DNA of 38,956 nucleotides from a virus (Duplodnaviria > Caudoviricetes), in the IMG/VR virus record IMGVR_UViG_3300019765_000008, positions 1-38,956 of that record. One strand, written 5' to 3'. The position numbers and the translations under genes were made by a program. Below the pieces are notes generated by a model that had not been told where the DNA came from, did no database searches, and saw only the letters and a program-made list of their open reading frames with translations. Every line of letters starts with the position of its first letter. Positions within the stretch are counted from its first letter, which is position 1. Positions 961 to 24,687 of this stretch are shown one piece after another.

Positions 961-1125
961 ATGAACATGAATAAAAAAAACACACACCAAATTTATTGTG
1001 ATGCTTGCAATAGTCCAGAGCCGATGCTTTTACATGATAAAGAAGAAAATACATATTACTATATATGTGTAGATTGTATGACATTTGAAGCAATAACGGA
1101 AACAAAACAACACAATGAAGCTTAG
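961..1125 (+). CDS. Small zinc-ribbon protein (54 aa; not in the supplied ORF track)
   Basis: Hand translation MNMNKKNTHQIYCDACNSPEPMLLHDKEENTYYYICVDCMTFEAITETKQHNEA*; two CxxC motifs; overlaps helicase start. Confidence 0.65.
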   Translation: MNMNKKNTHQIYCDACNSPEPMLLHDKEENTYYYICVDCMTFEAITETKQHNEA

Positions 1126-4100
1126 AGACTATCAAGAAAAACTAATCCATTTGGTTAGACAAGAATTTGCTAAGGGACACAGAAAAATTATCGCTTGGCT
1201 GGCTACGGGCGGCGGTAAATGCTATTGCCCTGATGCCGAAGTTATAATGTTCGATGGATCCATTAAAAAAGTAAAAGACATAATTGTTGGTGATAAACTA
1301 ATGGGGCCAGATTCAAAACCCAGAACAGTTTTAGCTACAACAAAAGGGTTTGGTCAACTATACAAAGTAAACCCAATAAAGGGTGATAGCCATATTTTTA
1401 ATGAAGATCATATCTTTACGCTTAGGGCAAGCTTTAACACCAAACATTACAATCAAGGTGAATTATACGACATAAGCCTAAAAGATTATGTTGATTCAAC
1501 AAAAGACACCAAAAGACAACTTAAGTGGGCTAGGTCAGAAGGGATAAACTTTCCAGAAAAAGAAGTCTTTGATCCTTATCTTGTAGGTGTTTACCTAGGT
1601 GACGGCAGCAGGCATTGTCAATCTATCACCAACGGAGATATTGAAGTACAAACATACTTAGAAAAAATATGTAAAAGTGTTTATCAAGATAGAAAATCCT
1701 GTAAACAATACAGGTTTAACAAAGAAATAAAAGAAGAATTTAAAAAATGTTTGACCAATGGAATTGAAGAGAAATTTATCCCAGATGAATACAAAATAAA
1801 TTCAAGAGAAAACAGGCTTAAAATACTTGCTGGACTTATAGACACTGATGGGTACATGCACCACAACCACTGGGAGATAACAACTAAATTCCCCAAGCTA
1901 CATGATGACATATTATACTTATGTAGATCGCTTGGATTTGCAGCCTATTCAACTATTAAAAAAGTCAAACTAAAAACATGGACAGAAAGTAGAGAATATT
2001 TTCGGATTACAATATCAGGTGACTTAACAGAGGTTCCAATAAAAGTTGAAAGAAAAAAGACAAAATCTAGAGAACAAATAAAAAATGTTTTAAACACTGG
2101 ATTCAAATTAGAAAAAATTGAAAAAGGTGAATACGCTGGATTTGAACTAGACGGAGATGGAAGACACCTAATGAGTGATTTTTCTATTACCCACAATTCA
2201 GCTATCACTATCCAGCTAATTAAAAACCTACGCGAGAATAATAAATCTGTTATTTTTGTTGTTCGACGTAGACAGCTAGTTGTCGAAACCGCACGCAAGT
2301 TTGAGAAGATGGGCATTAAGTGCGGTATCATCATGGGAAACATGAAGGGCTTCGATGATTCTTTACCCGTTCAAGTTTGCTCGATTGATACAGTTAGACC
2401 AACAAAAAATGAAGACGGTGAGCCAGTATTAAAAGACAAACACAAATTCTTGCTTGGTTTTGATTCTATAGTTGTTGATGAATGTTTACACAAAGACACC
2501 TACGTTTTAACAGAAAACAAAAGGGCATGGAAAATTGAAAGGTTTGAAAGAGAACTAAAAAAGGACTGGCCCAAAGTATGGACTTACAACGAGAAGAATG
2601 GGAAGAAGGAACTAAAAAAAGTAGTTCGTGTTATACCAAGGAATAAAAACAATATATGGATTATATCATGCACTAAGACAAAAATAAAATGCACAGATAA
2701 CCATAGATTTTTTACCCAAAGAGGTTGGGTTAGAGCCGACAATCTTACTCTAAATGACGGTATTTTTTTTACCAAAAAAAGCTTAAAAGAAAATATATCT
2801 TGTGACTTTTCAAGAGTAAAAAACATACAAATAAATAAAGAAATAGAAAAAACTTATGATTTAGAAATTGAAGACAATCACAATTTTTTTGTTAATCACT
2901 CTTTGAACAATAATTATTTTTTACTCGCGCACAACTGCCACGACACTACCAGCCCAAGCTATAGAAACCTTTTTTCACTTTTCAAACCAGAGACTATTTT
3001 CATTGGTGTAACAGCAACACCTTTTCAGGTGGGTAATAAGGTGCATGACTTCTGGGAAACTTGCGTTAAGTCTATCGAGATAAAAGACTTGATAGACAAG
3101 GGCTATTTAGTTAAGCCGAGAATGTTTGTGCCAGTGGAGCAAGATCTTTCTGGAATTAAAACCACGGGCGGGGATTACAACAATAAACAGCTAGGCGAAG
3201 AGATGAGCAAGCTTAACATTATTGGAGATGTAATAGACAATTATAAAAAGTATGGAGAAAACAAAGCGGCTATATGCTTTGCAGTAAACAAACAGCACAG
3301 CAAAATACTTTGTGAAAAGTTTAACGCTAACGACATACCAGCAATTCACTGCGACGAATCGACAAATCAAAAAGACCGAGACAAAGCAATCAATGATTTA
3401 AAATCGGGTAAAATAAAAGTGCTGTGTAATGTAGACATTTATTCCACAGGCTGTGATATACCAGAAGCAGAAATAGGAATACTGGCAAGACCAACACGTT
3501 CGGAAACTTTATTTATTCAACAAGCTGGAAGACTTTTAAGACCATATAGAAAATGTGGACGCTGCAAAAAGCAGTATGATAATTCTCCATCTTGTCCAAA
3601 TTGTGGTTATACAGAACCAGAGTATATAAAAGAATATGCTGTATTGATAGACCACGGAAACAACATACAACAGCATGGTACACCTTTGGATATTAGGGAA
3701 GCTGCATTAACCAAAGAAGACCTAGAGAAGAAAAAGAAAAAGAAAAAGCTAGAGGAAAAAGAACCACAGATAAAAGCGGTTAAGTGTAAAGCTTGTTTTT
3801 TAATCTATGACCCAAGTTTTGATAAATGTCCTTCATGTGGACACGTCAACGAACAAAAAAAGATAGTGCATAAAAAAGGAGAGCTAGTAGAACTTGGTGA
3901 CGTAGAGCCAGAGCCGATAGAACTTAAAAGAATGAGAGGCAAGCTTGCTACGCTTCAGAAGAAACAAAGGCTAAATGGATATAAAGAAAACTATCCATAC
4001 TTTAAAATGTATGAACACTATGGAGACAAGATATATAAATACCCAGAGTTGAAAATACCAACATGGATTAAACGCTATGCAGGCAAGAAGAAACAAGAGC

Positions 4101-4156
4101 AAGAAGAAGCAGATAGAATTTTAGAAAGGTTAGATGAAAATGTTAGATTTTTTTAA
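1115..4156 (+). CDS. Superfamily 2 DNA helicase (ResIII/YejH-RadD-like) precursor containing two inteins; about 536 aa after splicing
   Basis: Q motif LRDYQ, Walker A ATGGGK|S, Walker B VVDE|CH, motif III TATP, motif V STGCDIP, motif VI QQAGRLLR; two CxxC..CxxC zinc modules in the C-terminal part. Confidence 0.93.
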   Translation: MKLRDYQEKLIHLVRQEFAKGHRKIIAWLATGGGKCYCPDAEVIMFDGSIKKVKDIIVGDKLMGPDSKPRTVLATTKGFGQLYKVNPIKGDSHIFNEDHIFTLRASFNTKHYNQGELYDISLKDYVDSTKDTKRQLKWARSEGINFPEKEVFDPYLVGVYLGDGSRHCQSITNGDIEVQTYLEKICKSVYQDRKSCKQYRFNKEIKEEFKKCLTNGIEEKFIPDEYKINSRENRLKILAGLIDTDGYMHHNHWEITTKFPKLHDDILYLCRSLGFAAYSTIKKVKLKTWTESREYFRITISGDLTEVPIKVERKKTKSREQIKNVLNTGFKLEKIEKGEYAGFELDGDGRHLMSDFSITHNSAITIQLIKNLRENNKSVIFVVRRRQLVVETARKFEKMGIKCGIIMGNMKGFDDSLPVQVCSIDTVRPTKNEDGEPVLKDKHKFLLGFDSIVVDECLHKDTYVLTENKRAWKIERFERELKKDWPKVWTYNEKNGKKELKKVVRVIPRNKNNIWIISCTKTKIKCTDNHRFFTQRGWVRADNLTLNDGIFFTKKSLKENISCDFSRVKNIQINKEIEKTYDLEIEDNHNFFVNHSLNNNYFLLAHNCHDTTSPSYRNLFSLFKPETIFIGVTATPFQVGNKVHDFWETCVKSIEIKDLIDKGYLVKPRMFVPVEQDLSGIKTTGGDYNNKQLGEEMSKLNIIGDVIDNYKKYGENKAAICFAVNKQHSKILCEKFNANDIPAIHCDESTNQKDRDKAINDLKSGKIKVLCNVDIYSTGCDIPEAEIGILARPTRSETLFIQQAGRLLRPYRKCGRCKKQYDNSPSCPNCGYTEPEYIKEYAVLIDHGNNIQQHGTPLDIREAALTKEDLEKKKKKKKLEEKEPQIKAVKCKACFLIYDPSFDKCPSCGHVNEQKKIVHKKGELVELGDVEPEPIELKRMRGKLATLQKKQRLNGYKENYPYFKMYEHYGDKIYKYPELKIPTWIKRYAGKKKQEQEEADRILERLDENVRFF
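1220..2197 (+). mobile_element. Intein with LAGLIDADG homing endonuclease (326 aa) inserted in helicase Walker A
   Basis: Starts CYCPDAEVIMFDGS after GGGK and ends ITHN before Ser; block B NEDH; endonuclease motifs YLVGVYLGDG and ILAGLIDTDG. Confidence 0.93.
2483..2935 (+). mobile_element. Mini-intein (151 aa, no endonuclease) inserted in helicase Walker B
   Basis: Starts CLHKDTYV after VVDE; block B CTDNH; block F TYDLEIEDNHNFF; ends AHN before Cys; splicing restores DECH. Confidence 0.92.
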
Positions 4157-7845: not shown

Positions 7846-7856
7846 ATACTAAAATC

Positions 7857-8195
7857 TGTGGATAACCTTGTTTGTTACCTTCTGTTACCTTGCTCGTTAC
7901 CGCTGGTTTAATCCTAAAAAGTTAATCATTATAATGAGTTAAGTGGTCTTGTTACCTTTGTTACCTTTTTACCTCGTTTCCGAGCAAAATATGTGTAAAG
8001 GGGTATATATATAAATAACGGCACCTGCCGTTGTATCTTTCTTTCTTTCTTTGTATATATATATATATTTAGGTAACAAGGTAACAAAGTAAGTAAGGTT
8101 ATTGAAATCATTGGGAAAATCTTGTTACCTCGGCTGTTACCTTGTTACCAAATTGAGTTTAACTATCTGATATTATTTAAAAAAAGACAGGTAAC
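7857..8195. repeat. Putative replication origin: GTTACC iteron array with AT-rich core and DnaA box
   Basis: GTTACC at 7874, 7884, 7896, 7951, 7960, 8124, 8136, 8144; GGTAAC at 8072, 8080, 8190; TGTGGATAA (DnaA box) at 7857-7865; (TA)n tracts; lies directly downstream of primase-helicase. Confidence 0.75.
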
Positions 8196-8289: not shown

Positions 8290-8318
8290 TTGACAAAAAT
8301 GATAACATATAGCATAAC
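8290..8318 (+). promoter_or_regulatory. Sigma70-like early promoter
   Basis: TTGACA-17 bp-CATAAC upstream of ORF 8360; GGAG RBS. Confidence 0.65.
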
Positions 8319-10172: not shown

Positions 10173-10433
10173 ATGGACGCTTCAGAAGTTGTCAAGATAA
10201 TAATCGGCGTTTTTGTCGGTATGTTTGTGTATCTCATTAGAGACAAGCTAGGCAAGGTTGAGAAAGTAGAATCAAAAGTTGGATTAAAAATAGATCAGAT
10301 TTTAGAAAAGATTGTTTCCATCGAAAAAAAGCTGGTTGAAATAAATTCACTTAGAGATACAGTAGTGCGGTTAGAGACTAGGATAGAGTCTATAGATAAA
10401 AGAGTTAATAGGATAGAGAAGGATTATACCTAA
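10173..10433 (+). CDS. Membrane-anchored coiled-coil protein, holin/XhlA-like candidate
   Basis: One N-terminal TM helix then heptads (VVRLETRIESIDKRVNRIE); directly precedes the endolysin; GGGGG RBS supports start 10173. Confidence 0.6.
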   Translation: MDASEVVKIIIGVFVGMFVYLIRDKLGKVEKVESKVGLKIDQILEKIVSIEKKLVEINSLRDTVVRLETRIESIDKRVNRIEKDYT

Positions 10434-10435
10434 CA

Positions 10436-11290
10436 ATGAGAGACCCATATTACATAGAGATAAAAAACTTTAAATGGTCTATGACCCTAGACGAACTTAA
10501 AAATCTTCAGGTTGAAAAAGGTTCGGCAGTCGATAGTGTTGAAGTAAGTATTGATTTTAATTCAGTAGATGAATACGAGCCTAGGCTTAGTGATAATGAC
10601 GTTCTTGTTCATGTTTCAGGTTTAAATCGACATGGTGAAATGAGAGTAAAAAAAGAGTATGGCATTAAGCTATTGGCAGACCAAATTAAAGAAGAGCCAG
10701 ATAGAAAAAATGCTTACACTGGCTTTTATCCAAAGGGAGAAATAGTAGACATTGGGATGCCAGTAAGGTGGAATAATGACCCAAAGGGCTTAATTGTTCA
10801 CTATACTGCTGGATGGTCTAACACAGAGCAAAAGTCTATCAATACTTTACGCGGTGGAAAAAAGAACGGTTATACATATTGGACTATGAGCGAATCGGGT
10901 ACGGTTTACATGGACACTAAAGCAACGGAGCATGGCTATCATTGCGGCACGTATCATCATAGAGATCATTTGGGAATCGAAATAAACAATGGTGGCAAGC
11001 TTGGCTCAGATAAAAAGACTTGGTTTAAATATGCTCCACCACAAAACCGCATAAGATACGCTGATTATCCGAACCAGGAAAAAGGCTTTTATATGACTTA
11101 CACTAAAGAGCAAGAAGAAAGCTTGGTAGATTTATGTTATTGGCTTAAAGACACTTACCCTTCATTCTCATTCGATAACGTACTTGGACATGATGAAGTA
11201 GCCAAAGGGAGAAAGAACGACCCTGGGGGAAGTTTATCTATGTCTATGAAGGACTTTAGGCAGTTTTTGAAAGACAACTACAAATCATGA
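10436..11290 (+). CDS. Endolysin, N-acetylmuramoyl-L-alanine amidase (Amidase_2 family)
   Basis: LIVHYTAG, LGIEI, VLGHDEV and KNDPG zinc/catalytic motifs; extra N-terminal region of about 100 aa. Confidence 0.9.
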   Translation: MRDPYYIEIKNFKWSMTLDELKNLQVEKGSAVDSVEVSIDFNSVDEYEPRLSDNDVLVHVSGLNRHGEMRVKKEYGIKLLADQIKEEPDRKNAYTGFYPKGEIVDIGMPVRWNNDPKGLIVHYTAGWSNTEQKSINTLRGGKKNGYTYWTMSESGTVYMDTKATEHGYHCGTYHHRDHLGIEINNGGKLGSDKKTWFKYAPPQNRIRYADYPNQEKGFYMTYTKEQEESLVDLCYWLKDTYPSFSFDNVLGHDEVAKGRKNDPGGSLSMSMKDFRQFLKDNYKS

Positions 11291-11355
11291 TAAAATGATC
11301 TTGCTTAAAAGCGGTAAAGCAACCGGCCTGTATTTGTAATAAACGCGGTTTGCAT

Positions 11356-11384
11356 GGGGGGACGATAATTCCCTCCTTTTTTTT
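11356..11384 (+). terminator. Rho-independent terminator after endolysin
   Basis: GGGGGGA...TCCCTCC stem (one G-U pair) plus T8. Confidence 0.7.
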
Positions 11385-11394
11385 ATTTGGCACG

Positions 11395-11422
11395 TTGACA
11401 AAAAAGATAACCAGTATACATT
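11395..11422 (+). promoter_or_regulatory. Sigma70-like promoter of the ParB/PAPS-reductase cassette
   Basis: TTGACA-16 bp-TACATT; the GTTGACAAAAAAGATAAC context matches the early promoter at 8290 (GTTGACAAAAATGATAAC). Confidence 0.65.
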
Positions 11423-11447
11423 ATTTTCAAATAACATGGAGTATTTT

Positions 11448-12581
11448 ATGGACATTCAAAAAAACATGCTGGAGTTGGTTAGTTATATCGAAGGGTTAGA
11501 TCTTGATGAAAAGGTAGAGGCGATAAACTTTGTACGGTCTGTTATTCATGACATTAGCCCTTTTCGGGACGAGCCGGTTGATTTTGTCAAGTGGGTAAAA
11601 AACGACACTGTTGTATCAAACGACTATAATCCAAATAAAGTAGCACCAACAGAGATGAAGCTTCTAGAGTTATCTATCCATAATGATGGATACACTCAGC
11701 CGATAGTTTCGTGGAGCAATCCAGAAAAAGATAAAACAGAAGTAATTGACGGTTTTCACAGGCACAGAGTAGGTAAAGAGTCTAAAGCAATACGTGAAAG
11801 GGTTAAGGGTTATCTTCCCGTTGTTGACATACGAAAAGAGCAAAGCGGCAAGAAAGACAGAATAGCATCTACGATCAGGCACAACAGGGCTAGGGGAAAA
11901 CACCAGATTGATGCAATGAGCGAGATTGTCATTGAGCTAAAGAATAGAAATTGGAAAAATTCTAGAATTGCTAGAGAACTCGGCATGGACGAAGAAGAGG
12001 TTTTAAGACTTTGCCAGATATCGGGGCTTGAAAATCTTTTTAGCGATAAGGATTTTAGTAGAGCATGGGAAGCTCAAGATTCTTTATCTGATGCTGATTG
12101 GCAAGATATAACTGACGATGACGGCGACGACGATGTTAGAATACCGCACATGAACGACGAACAAAGAATATTTCACACCTACCACCATTGGGAATGTCAC
12201 AAGGCAGGATTCTACGCTTCTAACGTTGAGGGGAAAACAAAAAAACAGTGTGAAGAAGAGTATAAAAACTTTTTATCTGACAAAAGTTTATTTAAAGAAA
12301 CTTTAGAGAAAGTCATAACAGAATGGAAGTTTTCATGTGAGCATTATCTTACTAATAAAGCTATGAATAGAATTGCTTGGCTTGGGCAAGCTTCGGCGTG
12401 TTATGCTCTTGGTTTGCCGTCAAAGTTTTGTGGTGGTTTTAATTTGATGTCTGAAGAAGAGAGACACGAGGCTAACTTGATAGCGTTGGATGCTCTGAAT
12501 AAATGGCTTACAAATAATGGTATGGATGTGGTAAGTCTTGAGCAAGGTTTAAACGCTACTAAGCAAGTGGAGCTATATTAA
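11448..12581 (+). CDS. ibrB: IbrB/YbdM-like ParB/Srx-fold protein fused to an additional C-terminal domain
   Basis: SPF.DEPVD, NDYNPNKVAP.E, DGYTQPIV, IDGFHR, STIRHNRARGKH, ELGMD.EEVLRL, FSRAWE; then an acidic linker and a domain of about 140 aa; GGAG RBS supports start 11448. Confidence 0.85.
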   Translation: MDIQKNMLELVSYIEGLDLDEKVEAINFVRSVIHDISPFRDEPVDFVKWVKNDTVVSNDYNPNKVAPTEMKLLELSIHNDGYTQPIVSWSNPEKDKTEVIDGFHRHRVGKESKAIRERVKGYLPVVDIRKEQSGKKDRIASTIRHNRARGKHQIDAMSEIVIELKNRNWKNSRIARELGMDEEEVLRLCQISGLENLFSDKDFSRAWEAQDSLSDADWQDITDDDGDDDVRIPHMNDEQRIFHTYHHWECHKAGFYASNVEGKTKKQCEEEYKNFLSDKSLFKETLEKVITEWKFSCEHYLTNKAMNRIAWLGQASACYALGLPSKFCGGFNLMSEEERHEANLIALDALNKWLTNNGMDVVSLEQGLNATKQVELY

Positions 12582-13787
12582 GTGTCTAAGAAAGTTTATT
12601 TAAAAAAGTCTGTTTTAGCAGCATCGAGAGAAAGAATATCCGAGGCTTTTGATAGCTTTGAAAGGCTTTACATTAGTTTTTCTGGGGGTAAAGATTCTAC
12701 TGTCATGACTCACTTGGTGATGCGAGAAGCCATTAAAAGAAAGCGAAAGGTTGGGCTTTTAATTATAGATTTAGAGGCACAATATACAGCAACTATATCG
12801 CACATAGAGGAGATGGTTGAGAGGTATCGAGATCACATAGACCTTCATTGGTTTTGTGGTGAGTTGTTGTTGAGGAATGCCGTTTCAAACTATGAGCCTA
12901 AGTGGGTGTGTTGGGACGAAGACAAAAAGGATATTTGGGTAAGAGAAAAACCAAAGCTTGCTAGTGATCTAAGCCAGTATAGTTTTTATGTTCCCAAGAT
13001 GGAATTTGAAGAGTTAATGGTTATTTTTGGTAAGTGGTACTCTCAGGGGAAAACATGTGGTGCATTTATCGGGATTAGGTCAGATGAAAGTTTGCATCGG
13101 TATAGGGCTATAGTTTCTGAAAAAAATGGTTTGATGATGAACAATAGAAAATGGACGACAAAAGTAGCTAATGGCCTTTATAATATTTATCCGATATATG
13201 ACTGGAGGACTGAAGACATTTGGTTGTTTCACTCTAAACATAAGGAATATTGTTATAATAAAATATATGATCTTATGACTAGGGCGGGGGTTAAGTTTAG
13301 CAATCAAAGGTTGTGTCAGCCTTTTGGTGATGACCAGAAAAAAGGGTTGTGGCTTTATCATATACTTGAGCCGGACACTTGGTATAAGTTAATCAATAGA
13401 GTAAGTGGAGTTAATTCAGGTGCTTTATATGCTCAGGAGACTGGTAATATAAACGGAAGCAATAAGATAGAAAAACCGAAAGATCATACTTGGCATAGTT
13501 ACACTAACTTTCTTTTGAAAACCCTTCCAAAGAAAATGCAAGAAAATTACCGTGAGAGGTTTAGCAAGTTTATAGGTCAGTGGAAAAAGAGAGGTTATGA
13601 CACTATTCCAGATTATGCTCCACATGATCTGGAGGTAAAGCAGTGGGCGCCATCGTGGAGAAGGATGTGCCGTTGCATTTTGAGGAACGACTACTATTGC
13701 AAGGGATTGGGTCAGACTCAGCCTTTTTCAGAAGCTTACGGTAAGTACAAATCTTTGAAAGAAGTTGAAAAGATCAACATGGCCTGA
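12582..13787 (+). CDS. ibrA: IbrA/YbdN-like PAPS reductase-family (PP-loop) protein with DUF3440 domain
   Basis: PP-loop SFSGGKDS, IDLEAQY, GIRSDES, YPIYDW, RLCQPFG, PSWRRMC..ILRNDYYC. Confidence 0.9.
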   Translation: MSKKVYLKKSVLAASRERISEAFDSFERLYISFSGGKDSTVMTHLVMREAIKRKRKVGLLIIDLEAQYTATISHIEEMVERYRDHIDLHWFCGELLLRNAVSNYEPKWVCWDEDKKDIWVREKPKLASDLSQYSFYVPKMEFEELMVIFGKWYSQGKTCGAFIGIRSDESLHRYRAIVSEKNGLMMNNRKWTTKVANGLYNIYPIYDWRTEDIWLFHSKHKEYCYNKIYDLMTRAGVKFSNQRLCQPFGDDQKKGLWLYHILEPDTWYKLINRVSGVNSGALYAQETGNINGSNKIEKPKDHTWHSYTNFLLKTLPKKMQENYRERFSKFIGQWKKRGYDTIPDYAPHDLEVKQWAPSWRRMCRCILRNDYYCKGLGQTQPFSEAYGKYKSLKEVEKINMA

Positions 13788-13841
13788 TTTTTTTATTTGC
13801 GCTTGTTTCATGCTAAAATAAAGTAAAAAACAGGTGTAAAA

Positions 13842-24117: not shown

Positions 24118-24687
24118 ATGATTATGTATAAGCTTTTTTTAAACATAGTGGAAAGCATTAGCCGAAACGTTGGCTATATTTATGTGCCTTTTAATAATCG
24201 AAAGATAAAGGCTAGGCACTATAGATACATGGAAAAGAGACTAATGGTCGGTGATATAATACTATGTAAAAGCAATGGTTATTTGTCTAATTTGTTTATT
24301 GGCAAATATACTCATGTGGGAATATATGCGGCCCATGATACGGTGGTGGAAGCTACTCCAAAAGGTGGTGTTTTAAAGACTGACTTGATAGACTTTAGTT
24401 TAAAAAGAGATAAAGTTTTAATTTTAAGACCTAACTTCTTAACAGAGCCAGTTGAAAGAATTGAGATACAAGACAGGCTATATGAGCAGGTTGGCAAAGA
24501 TTATGATTTTAGTTTTCAAGCGGATATTAAGGATTTTTATTGCTCTGAGTTGGCTTTATACGCTTATAAGAATCCGAAGCTAAAATTCAAAGATAGGTAT
24601 GGAAGTTTGACTTTTATTCCTGATGATTTTATTGATTACATAGGAACAGAATTTAGGGTGATTTATGATTCTCAAAAACAAAAGTAA
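24118..24687 (+). CDS. Permuted papain-like NlpC/P60 enzyme (YiiX/YebB family)
   Basis: GDIIL, YTHVGIY, VVEA, GKDYDF, FYCSEL (His before Cys, i.e. permuted order). Confidence 0.88.
   Translation: MIMYKLFLNIVESISRNVGYIYVPFNNRKIKARHYRYMEKRLMVGDIILCKSNGYLSNLFIGKYTHVGIYAAHDTVVEATPKGGVLKTDLIDFSLKRDKVLILRPNFLTEPVERIEIQDRLYEQVGKDYDFSFQADIKDFYCSELALYAYKNPKLKFKDRYGSLTFIPDDFIDYIGTEFRVIYDSQKQK

What the first reader, a model, noticed from the sequence alone, without database searches (positions are those of the whole stretch)
11395..13800. Stand-alone ParB-fold + PAPS-reductase (IbrB/IbrA-like) cassette: candidate phage DNA/nucleotide modification or anti-defence system
Seen: two abutting genes (stop 12581, GTG 12582) placed right after the endolysin terminator. 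They have their own TTGACA promoter, whose context matches the early promoters, and the next gene has its own extended -10, so the pair looks like an independently and probably early-expressed moron. Known: the proteins match the IbrA/YbdN (PP-loop PAPS-reductase-like plus DUF3440) and IbrB/YbdM (ParB/Srx fold) families, whose biochemistry is unresolved. PAPS-reductase-like adenylating domains also drive DNA phosphorothioation (DndC, SspD), and ParB-like domains recur in phage base-modification loci. Inference: the pair activates a DNA or nucleotide substrate with ATP and installs a modification, possibly sulfur-containing (Cys in RLCQPFG, RRMC and DYYC), that protects the phage genome from host nucleases. 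The ParB gene comes first here, opposite to the ibrA-ibrB order described in E. coli.
Basis: partly seen in the sequence, partly recalled or inferred. Interest (0 to 1): 0.85.

Follow-up and report, generated by a model that had tools for sequence, protein, structure and literature searches.

The report
Removable phage IbrB-X/IbrA enzyme cassette
A freshwater phage carries a likely removable two-gene cassette with its own predicted promoter, from a widespread but chemically unsolved family (a ParB-like protein fused to an unnamed third domain, plus a PP-loop enzyme), which likely uses ATP to put a tag, probably not sulfur, on phage DNA to evade host defences.

Summary
The pair is the known, biochemically unsolved IbrB/IbrA (YbdM/YbdN) module. 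Three additions. (1) The ParB gene also carries a fused 150-aa helical domain with no family. It is a separate gene in other phages and sits just upstream of IbrA, or of a mini-copy of IbrA's tail, in 202 of 206 cases. (2) The cassette looks like a true moron: its promoter shares a 17-nt motif with three other promoters, a 12-nt direct repeat bounds it, and one public run holds a sister-strain contig lacking it. That junction has 30 letters a side, one under the tool's bar. (3) The sulfur idea weakens: no cysteine is invariant among 69 diverse IbrA proteins, while the adenylation motifs are. Best reading: ATP-dependent, non-sulfur tagging of phage DNA against host defence (0.4); substrate and product are untested. 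ParB-first order is common, not special. This scan has reported the same three-part module on other DNA several times.

The parts
11356..11389 (+). Intrinsic terminator after the endolysin; its T tail holds the left copy of the 12-nt boundary repeat (11378-11389)
   Evidence: hairpin -11.3 kcal/mol
11395..11424 (+). Predicted sigma-70 promoter with the phage's shared 17-nt motif; lies inside the removable segment
11448..12080 (+). IbrB/YbdM-type ParB/Srx domain plus helix-turn-helix (NDYNPN, DGYTQP, DGFHR, TIRHNRARGKH near-invariant); likely start 11448, first ATG 11436
   Evidence: (Noc 7ol9, E 0.024)
12081..12128 (+). Acidic low-confidence linker, weakly constrained (dN/dS about 0.8)
12129..12581 (+). 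Unnamed all-helical third domain (C or X), fused here and a separate gene in other phages
12582..13787 (+). IbrA/YbdN-type PP-loop enzyme (PAPS_reduct + DUF3440): SGGKDS, GxRxxESxxR, PxxDWxxxDxW; C-terminal ~75 aa also occurs as a stand-alone mini gene in relatives
13788..13799 (+). Right copy of the 12-nt boundary repeat; removable unit about 2,410 nt (11390-13799)
13811..13819 (+). Extended -10 candidate for the downstream metallophosphoesterase gene, outside the removable unit

Best explanation
This is a likely mobile three-part IbrB-X/IbrA cassette with its own predicted promoter, in which the PP-loop enzyme IbrA likely uses ATP to adenylate an acceptor and the ParB-like IbrB likely holds it on DNA, so that phage DNA would gain a non-sulfur chemical tag that would block some host nucleases. 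Shown: the genes, domains, conserved motifs, purifying selection, the gene-order rule for domain X and a cassette-less contig. Inferred: (a) adenylation chemistry, from the CysD/CysH/FAD-synthase-type motifs; (b) DNA as substrate, from the ParB plus HTH architecture and the neighbours; (c) X docking on the IbrA tail as an adaptor or specificity part, from gene order alone; (d) anti-defence benefit, from analogy.
For: IbrA residues kept in 99-100% of 69 representatives under 70% identity include S34, G36-S39, D63, E65, G164, R166, E169, S170, R173, P204, D207, D212, W214, R243, R273. The nearest solved relatives by sequence are CysD, APS reductase and FAD synthase, all weak (E 0.03-0.18); two of the three are adenylyltransferases (established knowledge). 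IbrB keeps DGFHR and HNRARGKH in 99-100% of 77 representatives (K155 91%) and models as a ParB-type domain followed by helices in the HTH position. dN/dS is 0.13-0.32 in the folded domains, from only 15-34 unsaturated pairs each. Genes inside or beside relatives' cassettes are GNAT acetyltransferases (5 of 6 tested), ectoine-synthase-like cupins (2 of 2), PD-(D/E)XK proteins (2 of 4, weak) and SNF2 proteins (2 of 2). Distant homologs sit beside genes annotated as methyl-, glucosyl- and acyltransferases. In phage D4276 IbrA lies three genes after AcrIIA5. A phage PAPS-reductase-Dam fusion, moved with one neighbouring gene, defeats Dnd defence (10.1101/2021.05.05.442762, passages). Presence/absence between sister strains fits an optional host-range gene.
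Against: No substrate, product or phenotype is shown here or in the papers found. The window still avoids GATC, GGCC, CCGG and many 6-bp palindromes, which argues against an old, broad shield against restriction. E. coli K-12 keeps ybdNM as a chromosomal operon under a LysR repressor tied to citrate genes (PMC9068703, passages), which fits metabolism or regulation as well. The cupin and GNAT partners suggest small-molecule chemistry. PADLOC gives only weak DndC/BrxP matches (E 6e-7 to 2e-6). The anti-Dnd protein has a Dam domain and no DUF3440 is described for it; I did not compare its sequence. X is absent from at least 26 IbrA-IbrB loci, so it is not essential.
Confidence: 0.4

Rival explanations
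1. The module makes, modifies or destroys a small molecule or nucleotide (or adenylates a host protein) and helps the phage without marking DNA; IbrB would act as a Srx/SerK-like phosphotransferase.
For: Ectoine-synthase-like cupins and GNATs insert into the cassette. The IbrB motif DGFHR resembles the small-molecule kinase branch of the ParB/Srx fold (recalled, not tested). Bacteria keep the pair chromosomally.
Against: IbrB carries a conserved HTH-like segment; SNF2, nuclease-like and methyltransferase partners point to DNA.
Confidence: 0.22
2. The pair is a transcriptional co-activator of phage or host genes, as the E. coli ibrAB name implies.
For: [quoted passage not shown] IbrB has an HTH-like segment.
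Against: Both proteins keep full catalytic-type motifs across unrelated phages and hosts, while promoters do not travel with them: the 17-nt motif is within 2 mismatches in only this phage's 3 copies among 71 loci. An effect on expression could be secondary to a DNA mark.
Confidence: 0.14
3. The cassette installs phosphorothioate or another sulfur group on phage DNA, like DndC, SspD or TdpC, using host cysteine desulfurase.
For: Weak DndC similarity. C245 and C373 are invariant among the 52 close relatives. TdpC alone suffices for phosphorothioate synthesis (PMC12914056, passage).
Against: No cysteine is invariant across the family (16-87%); no CC or CxxC in this protein; the Hendrix homolog has no cysteine; no partner ABC or ring ATPase nearby.
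Confidence: 0.1
4. IbrA is a decoy or direct inhibitor of host phosphorothioate-based (Dnd/Ssp/BREX4) defence.
For: Anti-Dnd precedent for a phage PAPS-reductase domain; PAPS reductases occur in anti-CRISPR-associated operons (PMC13551039, passage).
Against: A decoy would not need an invariant ParB partner and a third domain; the module spans hosts far beyond the roughly 10% with PT systems.
Confidence: 0.1
5. IbrA is a sulfur-assimilation auxiliary gene (CysH), as databases often label it.
For: PAPS_reduct match; DUF3440-bearing viral proteins were counted as CysH (10.1101/2021.01.05.425418, passage).
Against: No ECG catalytic tail, CC or CxxC; scores far below CysH cut-offs (26-30 bits against 154-254); no cys genes among recurring neighbours.
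Confidence: 0.02

Closest known systems
IbrA/IbrB of E. coli and its phages; K-12 YbdN/YbdM (phrog_2302, phrog_2159; PF01507 + PF11922)
   Same: Same two domain sets and motifs; 41% (IbrA) and 54% (IbrB domain) identity to phage PhiR5_2 proteins.
   Different: ParB gene first, fused to an extra 150-aa domain that PhiR5_2 lacks; own phage-type promoter; apparently removable unit.
Microcystis phage Mwe-JY13 genes XAI95149/XAI95148/XAI95147; Pseudomonas phage Amjad_SA
   Same: Same order ParB, X, IbrA; IbrA 61.5% identical in Mwe-JY13.
   Different: X is a separate gene there (labelled ParB/sulfiredoxin or hypothetical); nothing is characterised.
DNA phosphorothioation enzymes DndC, SspD, BrxP, TdpC
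   Same: PP-loop PAPS-reductase-like fold acting with ATP on DNA; DndB is also a ParB-superfamily protein (PMC10853773, passages).
   Different: Only weak similarity (E 1e-4 to 6e-7); no invariant cysteines; no DndD/SspC ATPase or DndE/SspB; has DUF3440.
Vibrio phage 44E38.1 p0018 PAPS-reductase-Dam anti-Dnd protein
   Same: Phage gene with a PAPS-reductase domain, swapped between sister phages and changing host range.
   Different: Fused to a methylase; no ParB partner or DUF3440 described; sequences not compared here.
CysD, CysH and FAD synthase
   Same: Shared PP-loop and PxxDW motifs; nearest solved sequences.
   Different: No reductase cysteines; twice-extended C-terminus; ParB partner.

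Membership tests
IbrA/YbdN | PAPS_reduct PP-loop domain followed by DUF3440 | tested here: met
   (both above cut-off)
IbrB/YbdM | ParB/Srx domain of the IbrB type encoded next to IbrA | tested here: met
   phrog_2159 E 2e-69; 54% to PhiR5_2 IbrB
IbrA/IbrB | Activation of prophage gene expression (recalled phenotype) | not testable with these tools
   needs an experiment
CysH (PAPS/APS reductase) | C-terminal ECG catalytic motif; CC and CxxC cluster ligands in APS reductase (motifs recalled) | tested here: not met
   none present; scores far below cut-offs
Dnd/Ssp/BREX4 phosphorothioation | Conserved cysteines for sulfur transfer or Fe-S binding | tested here: not met
   16-87% conservation in 69 representatives; TIGR03183 21 bits against 290
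Dnd/Ssp/BREX4 phosphorothioation | Partner ATPase (DndD, SspC, BrxC) and DNA-recognition subunit in the cluster | tested here: not met
   window annotation and 28 recurring or adjacent neighbours scanned
Tdp (TdpC) adenylation route | Homology to TdpC and DNA backbone adenylation | not tested
   no TdpC sequence or model fetched; known to me only from a sentence and a title in PMC12914056
ParB/Spo0J partition protein | ParA partner and parS-type role | tested here: not met
   no ParA in the window (record 75% complete); partner is always IbrA
ParB CTPase clamp | CTP binding and sliding on DNA | not testable with these tools
   only a weak match to Noc (E 0.024)
Phage moron | Own promoter, bounded unit, absent from a close relative | tested here: met
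   one contig in 1 of 7 runs, 30 letters a side; no hairpin terminator found after IbrA

The most novel reading that the evidence does not exclude
IbrA/IbrB is a widespread phage DNA-tagging system with new, sulfur-free chemistry (a stable AMP or AMP-activated adduct on DNA) loaded by a ParB-type clamp, in which domain X plus the IbrA tail form an exchangeable targeting module and GNAT or cupin add-ons diversify the tag.
Probability: 0.2. Interest if true: 0.88.

Novelty: new variant of a known kind. Interest (0 to 1): 0.55.

Why it matters
IbrA-like genes are very common (7,087 clusters among 8,000 candidates scored; 224 phage records) and are often counted as sulfur-metabolism genes without evidence. 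This copy is a compact 2.4-kb unit with all three parts in two genes, no accessory enzymes, and apparently a natural cassette-less sister strain, so it is a clean construct for finding the chemistry. A new DNA tag would add a class of phage counter-defence and correct many auxiliary-gene annotations.

Tried and rejected
Fold searches for both models could not be run, so the fold of domain X is unassigned. The complex prediction of X with IbrA was not available, so docking is untested. Family for X: no hit for the window's domain in Pfam, PHROGs, NCBIfam or PADLOC; 4 of 29 aligned members had one unrelated weak Pfam hit each; PDB sequence search gave only a chance-level RNF146 match; Atlas best score 0.81; no homology to IbrA (probability 0.5%). 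A Walker-A-like string in X is not conserved. Slot comparison in IMG/VR and JGI contigs found only cassette-bearing copies of this phage; the other 26 phosphoesterase relatives (38-44% identity) carry no part of the cassette nearby but are too distant to count as empty sites. Two RNA-library runs hold patches of the region, but as contigs that may be DNA, so expression is not shown. GC and codon use do not separate the cassette from its neighbours. The tree's group counts are unusable because one outgroup name was mislabelled as fused, and the tree is the quick version. The short/long IbrA classifier was crude: 3 loci were called long with X and no mini gene, and L176 is visibly short. Papers PMC3763556 and PMC4241021 were not held. 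No supplements were read; supplementary figure S10 of PMC13551039 may show whether its PAPS reductases are IbrA-type.

Full report
Setting. The window is a virus record of 38,956 bases, estimated 75% complete, held almost word for word in freshwater metagenome runs. It is a tailed phage: helicase, primase, small genes, endolysin, the cassette, a metallophosphoesterase, then terminase, portal, capsid and tail genes, all on the + strand.

Observation. The two ORFs, their junction, the upstream terminator and the promoter are as described. The TTGACA at 11395 is part of a 17-nt motif that recurs at 8290, 8695 and 9106, all intergenic and ahead of small genes. Four matches against 0.08 expected is strong, though the pattern was taken from these sites. 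The motif is specific to this phage: within 2 mismatches it precedes the cassette in 3 of 71 viral loci, all copies of this phage. The likely start of ORF1 is 11448.

The cassette as a removable unit. A 12-nt sequence occurs exactly twice in the window, at 11378 and 13788. In run X18 one contig joins 11362 to 13789 with 13 other letters between, which read as the rest of a variant terminator hairpin (depth 20.3). The cassette lies on its own contig, 11333-13818, at depth 10.2, and the downstream flank starts at 13789 at depth 45.4. Upstream, two endolysin versions have depths 12.8 and 34.3. I read this as an assembly bubble in which a commoner sister strain lacks the cassette. Limits: it is one contig in 1 of 7 runs laid; it has 30 letters on a side where the tool asks for 31 (30 is what a 31-letter assembly graph gives, from my own knowledge); the depths do not add up exactly; all 3 IMG/VR and 3 JGI copies carry the cassette. 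Gain or loss cannot be told, but the phage-specific promoter inside the unit suggests long residence in this lineage.

Three parts, not two. ORF1 is 381 aa, while IbrB proteins are about 170-220 aa. Residues 232-381 match no family yet have 856 relatives at the 50%-cluster level. The model is confident and all-helical (block pLDDT 89-98 over residues 241-370) and is joined to the ParB part by a low-confidence acidic linker. Best-kept residues among 265 representatives are E253, W252, W297, N311, G317 and A350. In Mwe-JY13 and Amjad_SA the domain is a separate gene between ParB and IbrA; in Gaia and XCL1123 it follows them. Of 80 viral loci found with this domain alone, 79 have IbrA beside it and the last is cut by the contig end. 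Over all loci, the next core gene after X is IbrA or a 85-100-aa copy of IbrA's tail in 202 of 206 cases (one of them fused); three exceptions end at contig ends and one has IbrA upstream (seven redundant copies of this phage's own locus were left out, other near-copies were not, and the loci were chosen by searches for these genes). The 21 mini-tail genes accompany a long-tailed IbrA subtype (17 classed long, 4 unclassed, 0 short). This predicts that X works with the short-type tail. X is optional, since 26 loci have short IbrA and IbrB without it. In a quick tree of 74 IbrA proteins the 10 fused-form rows fall inside one 15-row clade with SH-aLRT 99.

What the enzyme keeps. Among 69 IbrA proteins under 70% identity, the PP-loop, the GxRxxESxxR and PxxDWxxxDxW motifs and several arginines are at 96-100%, whereas C245, C363, C365 and C373 are at 67, 71, 16 and 87%. 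Among the 52 close relatives C245 and C373 are invariant, so a role in this subgroup is not excluded. The protein has no CC, CxxC or ECG, the mini-tail genes mostly lack the tail cysteines, and the distant Hendrix homolog has no cysteine at all. The model (mean pLDDT 76, pTM 0.68) is low-confidence around the substrate loops, and could not be fold-searched. So this is not CysH and probably not a DndC-like sulfur transferase; what remains is the adenylation core shared with CysD and FAD synthase (weak matches; chemistry from established knowledge). IbrB keeps NDYNPN, DGYTQP, DGFHR and HNRARGKH and a helical segment in the HTH position, which suggests nucleotide binding and DNA binding.

Neighbours. 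Close relatives (66-85% IbrA identity in other phages) sit among varied flanking genes, mostly replication and recombination genes, with synonymous sites near saturation: a mobile unit under strong constraint. Genes slotted into or beside the cassette elsewhere are GNATs, ectoine-synthase-like cupins, PD-(D/E)XK-like proteins and SNF2 proteins. Distant homologs cluster with genes annotated as methyl-, glucosyl- and acyltransferases and extra ParB genes. This fits a tagging pathway with optional tailoring steps; the cupin and GNAT also fit small-molecule chemistry.

Against the shield idea. The window under-represents GATC (140 against 238 expected, both strands counted), GGCC, CCGG and many 6-bp palindromes, and has no methyltransferase motif in a long ORF. 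That is ordinary restriction avoidance and suggests any protection is narrow or recent.

Literature. Ten searches of the held library found no biochemistry for IbrA/IbrB or YbdN/YbdM and no mention of a third domain; subscription papers are mostly not held. Read as passages only: 10.1101/2021.05.05.442762 (anti-Dnd PAPS-Dam gene), PMC13551039 (PAPS reductases in Aca operons, and part of the reference list), PMC10853773, PMC12839542, PMC12707154, PMC12914056, PMC9068703, 10.1101/2021.01.05.425418, PMC4541368, PMC4490671, PMC8092301. The original ibrAB study is recalled only; the Tdp paper was seen as a title and one citing sentence. No supplements were read.

Earlier notes of this scan describe the same module, the extra domain, and the cupin, GNAT and SNF2 variants on other genomes; none concerns this genome. 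I had noted the third domain before reading them and re-tested it.

Verdict. A real, well-bounded copy of a known but unsolved system in a three-part variant. Most likely an ATP-dependent, non-sulfur DNA tag (0.4). Interest 0.55, because it makes an open question directly testable rather than because the family is new.

Noticed in passing
window 7850-8190: About a dozen GTTACC/GGTAAC repeats on both strands between the primase and the first shared-motif promoter; likely a replication origin.
   Followed up: no
window 1115-4156: The helicase has two intein-like regions (Hom_end-associated Hint plus homing endonuclease at aa 36-303; Intein_splicing at aa 483-598).
   Followed up: no
window 11267-11389: A TTGAAA plus extended -10 site overlaps the endolysin stop about 80 nt before the terminator; possibly a small RNA; it folds at -21 kcal/mol including the terminator.
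   Followed up: partly
window 10433-11039: The endolysin N-terminal region is variable between strains: 367 extra letters at 10433 in runs X11, X17 and X2, and a different version in X18.
   Followed up: no
L201, L206, L269: Loci with two IbrA genes: a long-tailed IbrA with IbrB, followed by X and a second IbrA.
   Followed up: partly
L164:420-1994: Domain X and IbrA lie in one 524-aa reading frame, a possible X-IbrA fusion.
   Followed up: no
L123:1628-2164, L173:2673-3212, L227:5589-6104, L262:5585-6100, L270:2213-2746: A 171-179-aa PD-(D/E)XK-like gene is repeatedly inserted inside the cassette.
   Followed up: partly
L009:1984-5765 (Streptococcus phage D4276): AcrIIA5, an unknown gene, an SNF2-like gene, IbrA and IbrB are contiguous.
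   Followed up: no
window 24118-24687: A papain-like C92 peptidase gene lies among the head genes.
   Followed up: no
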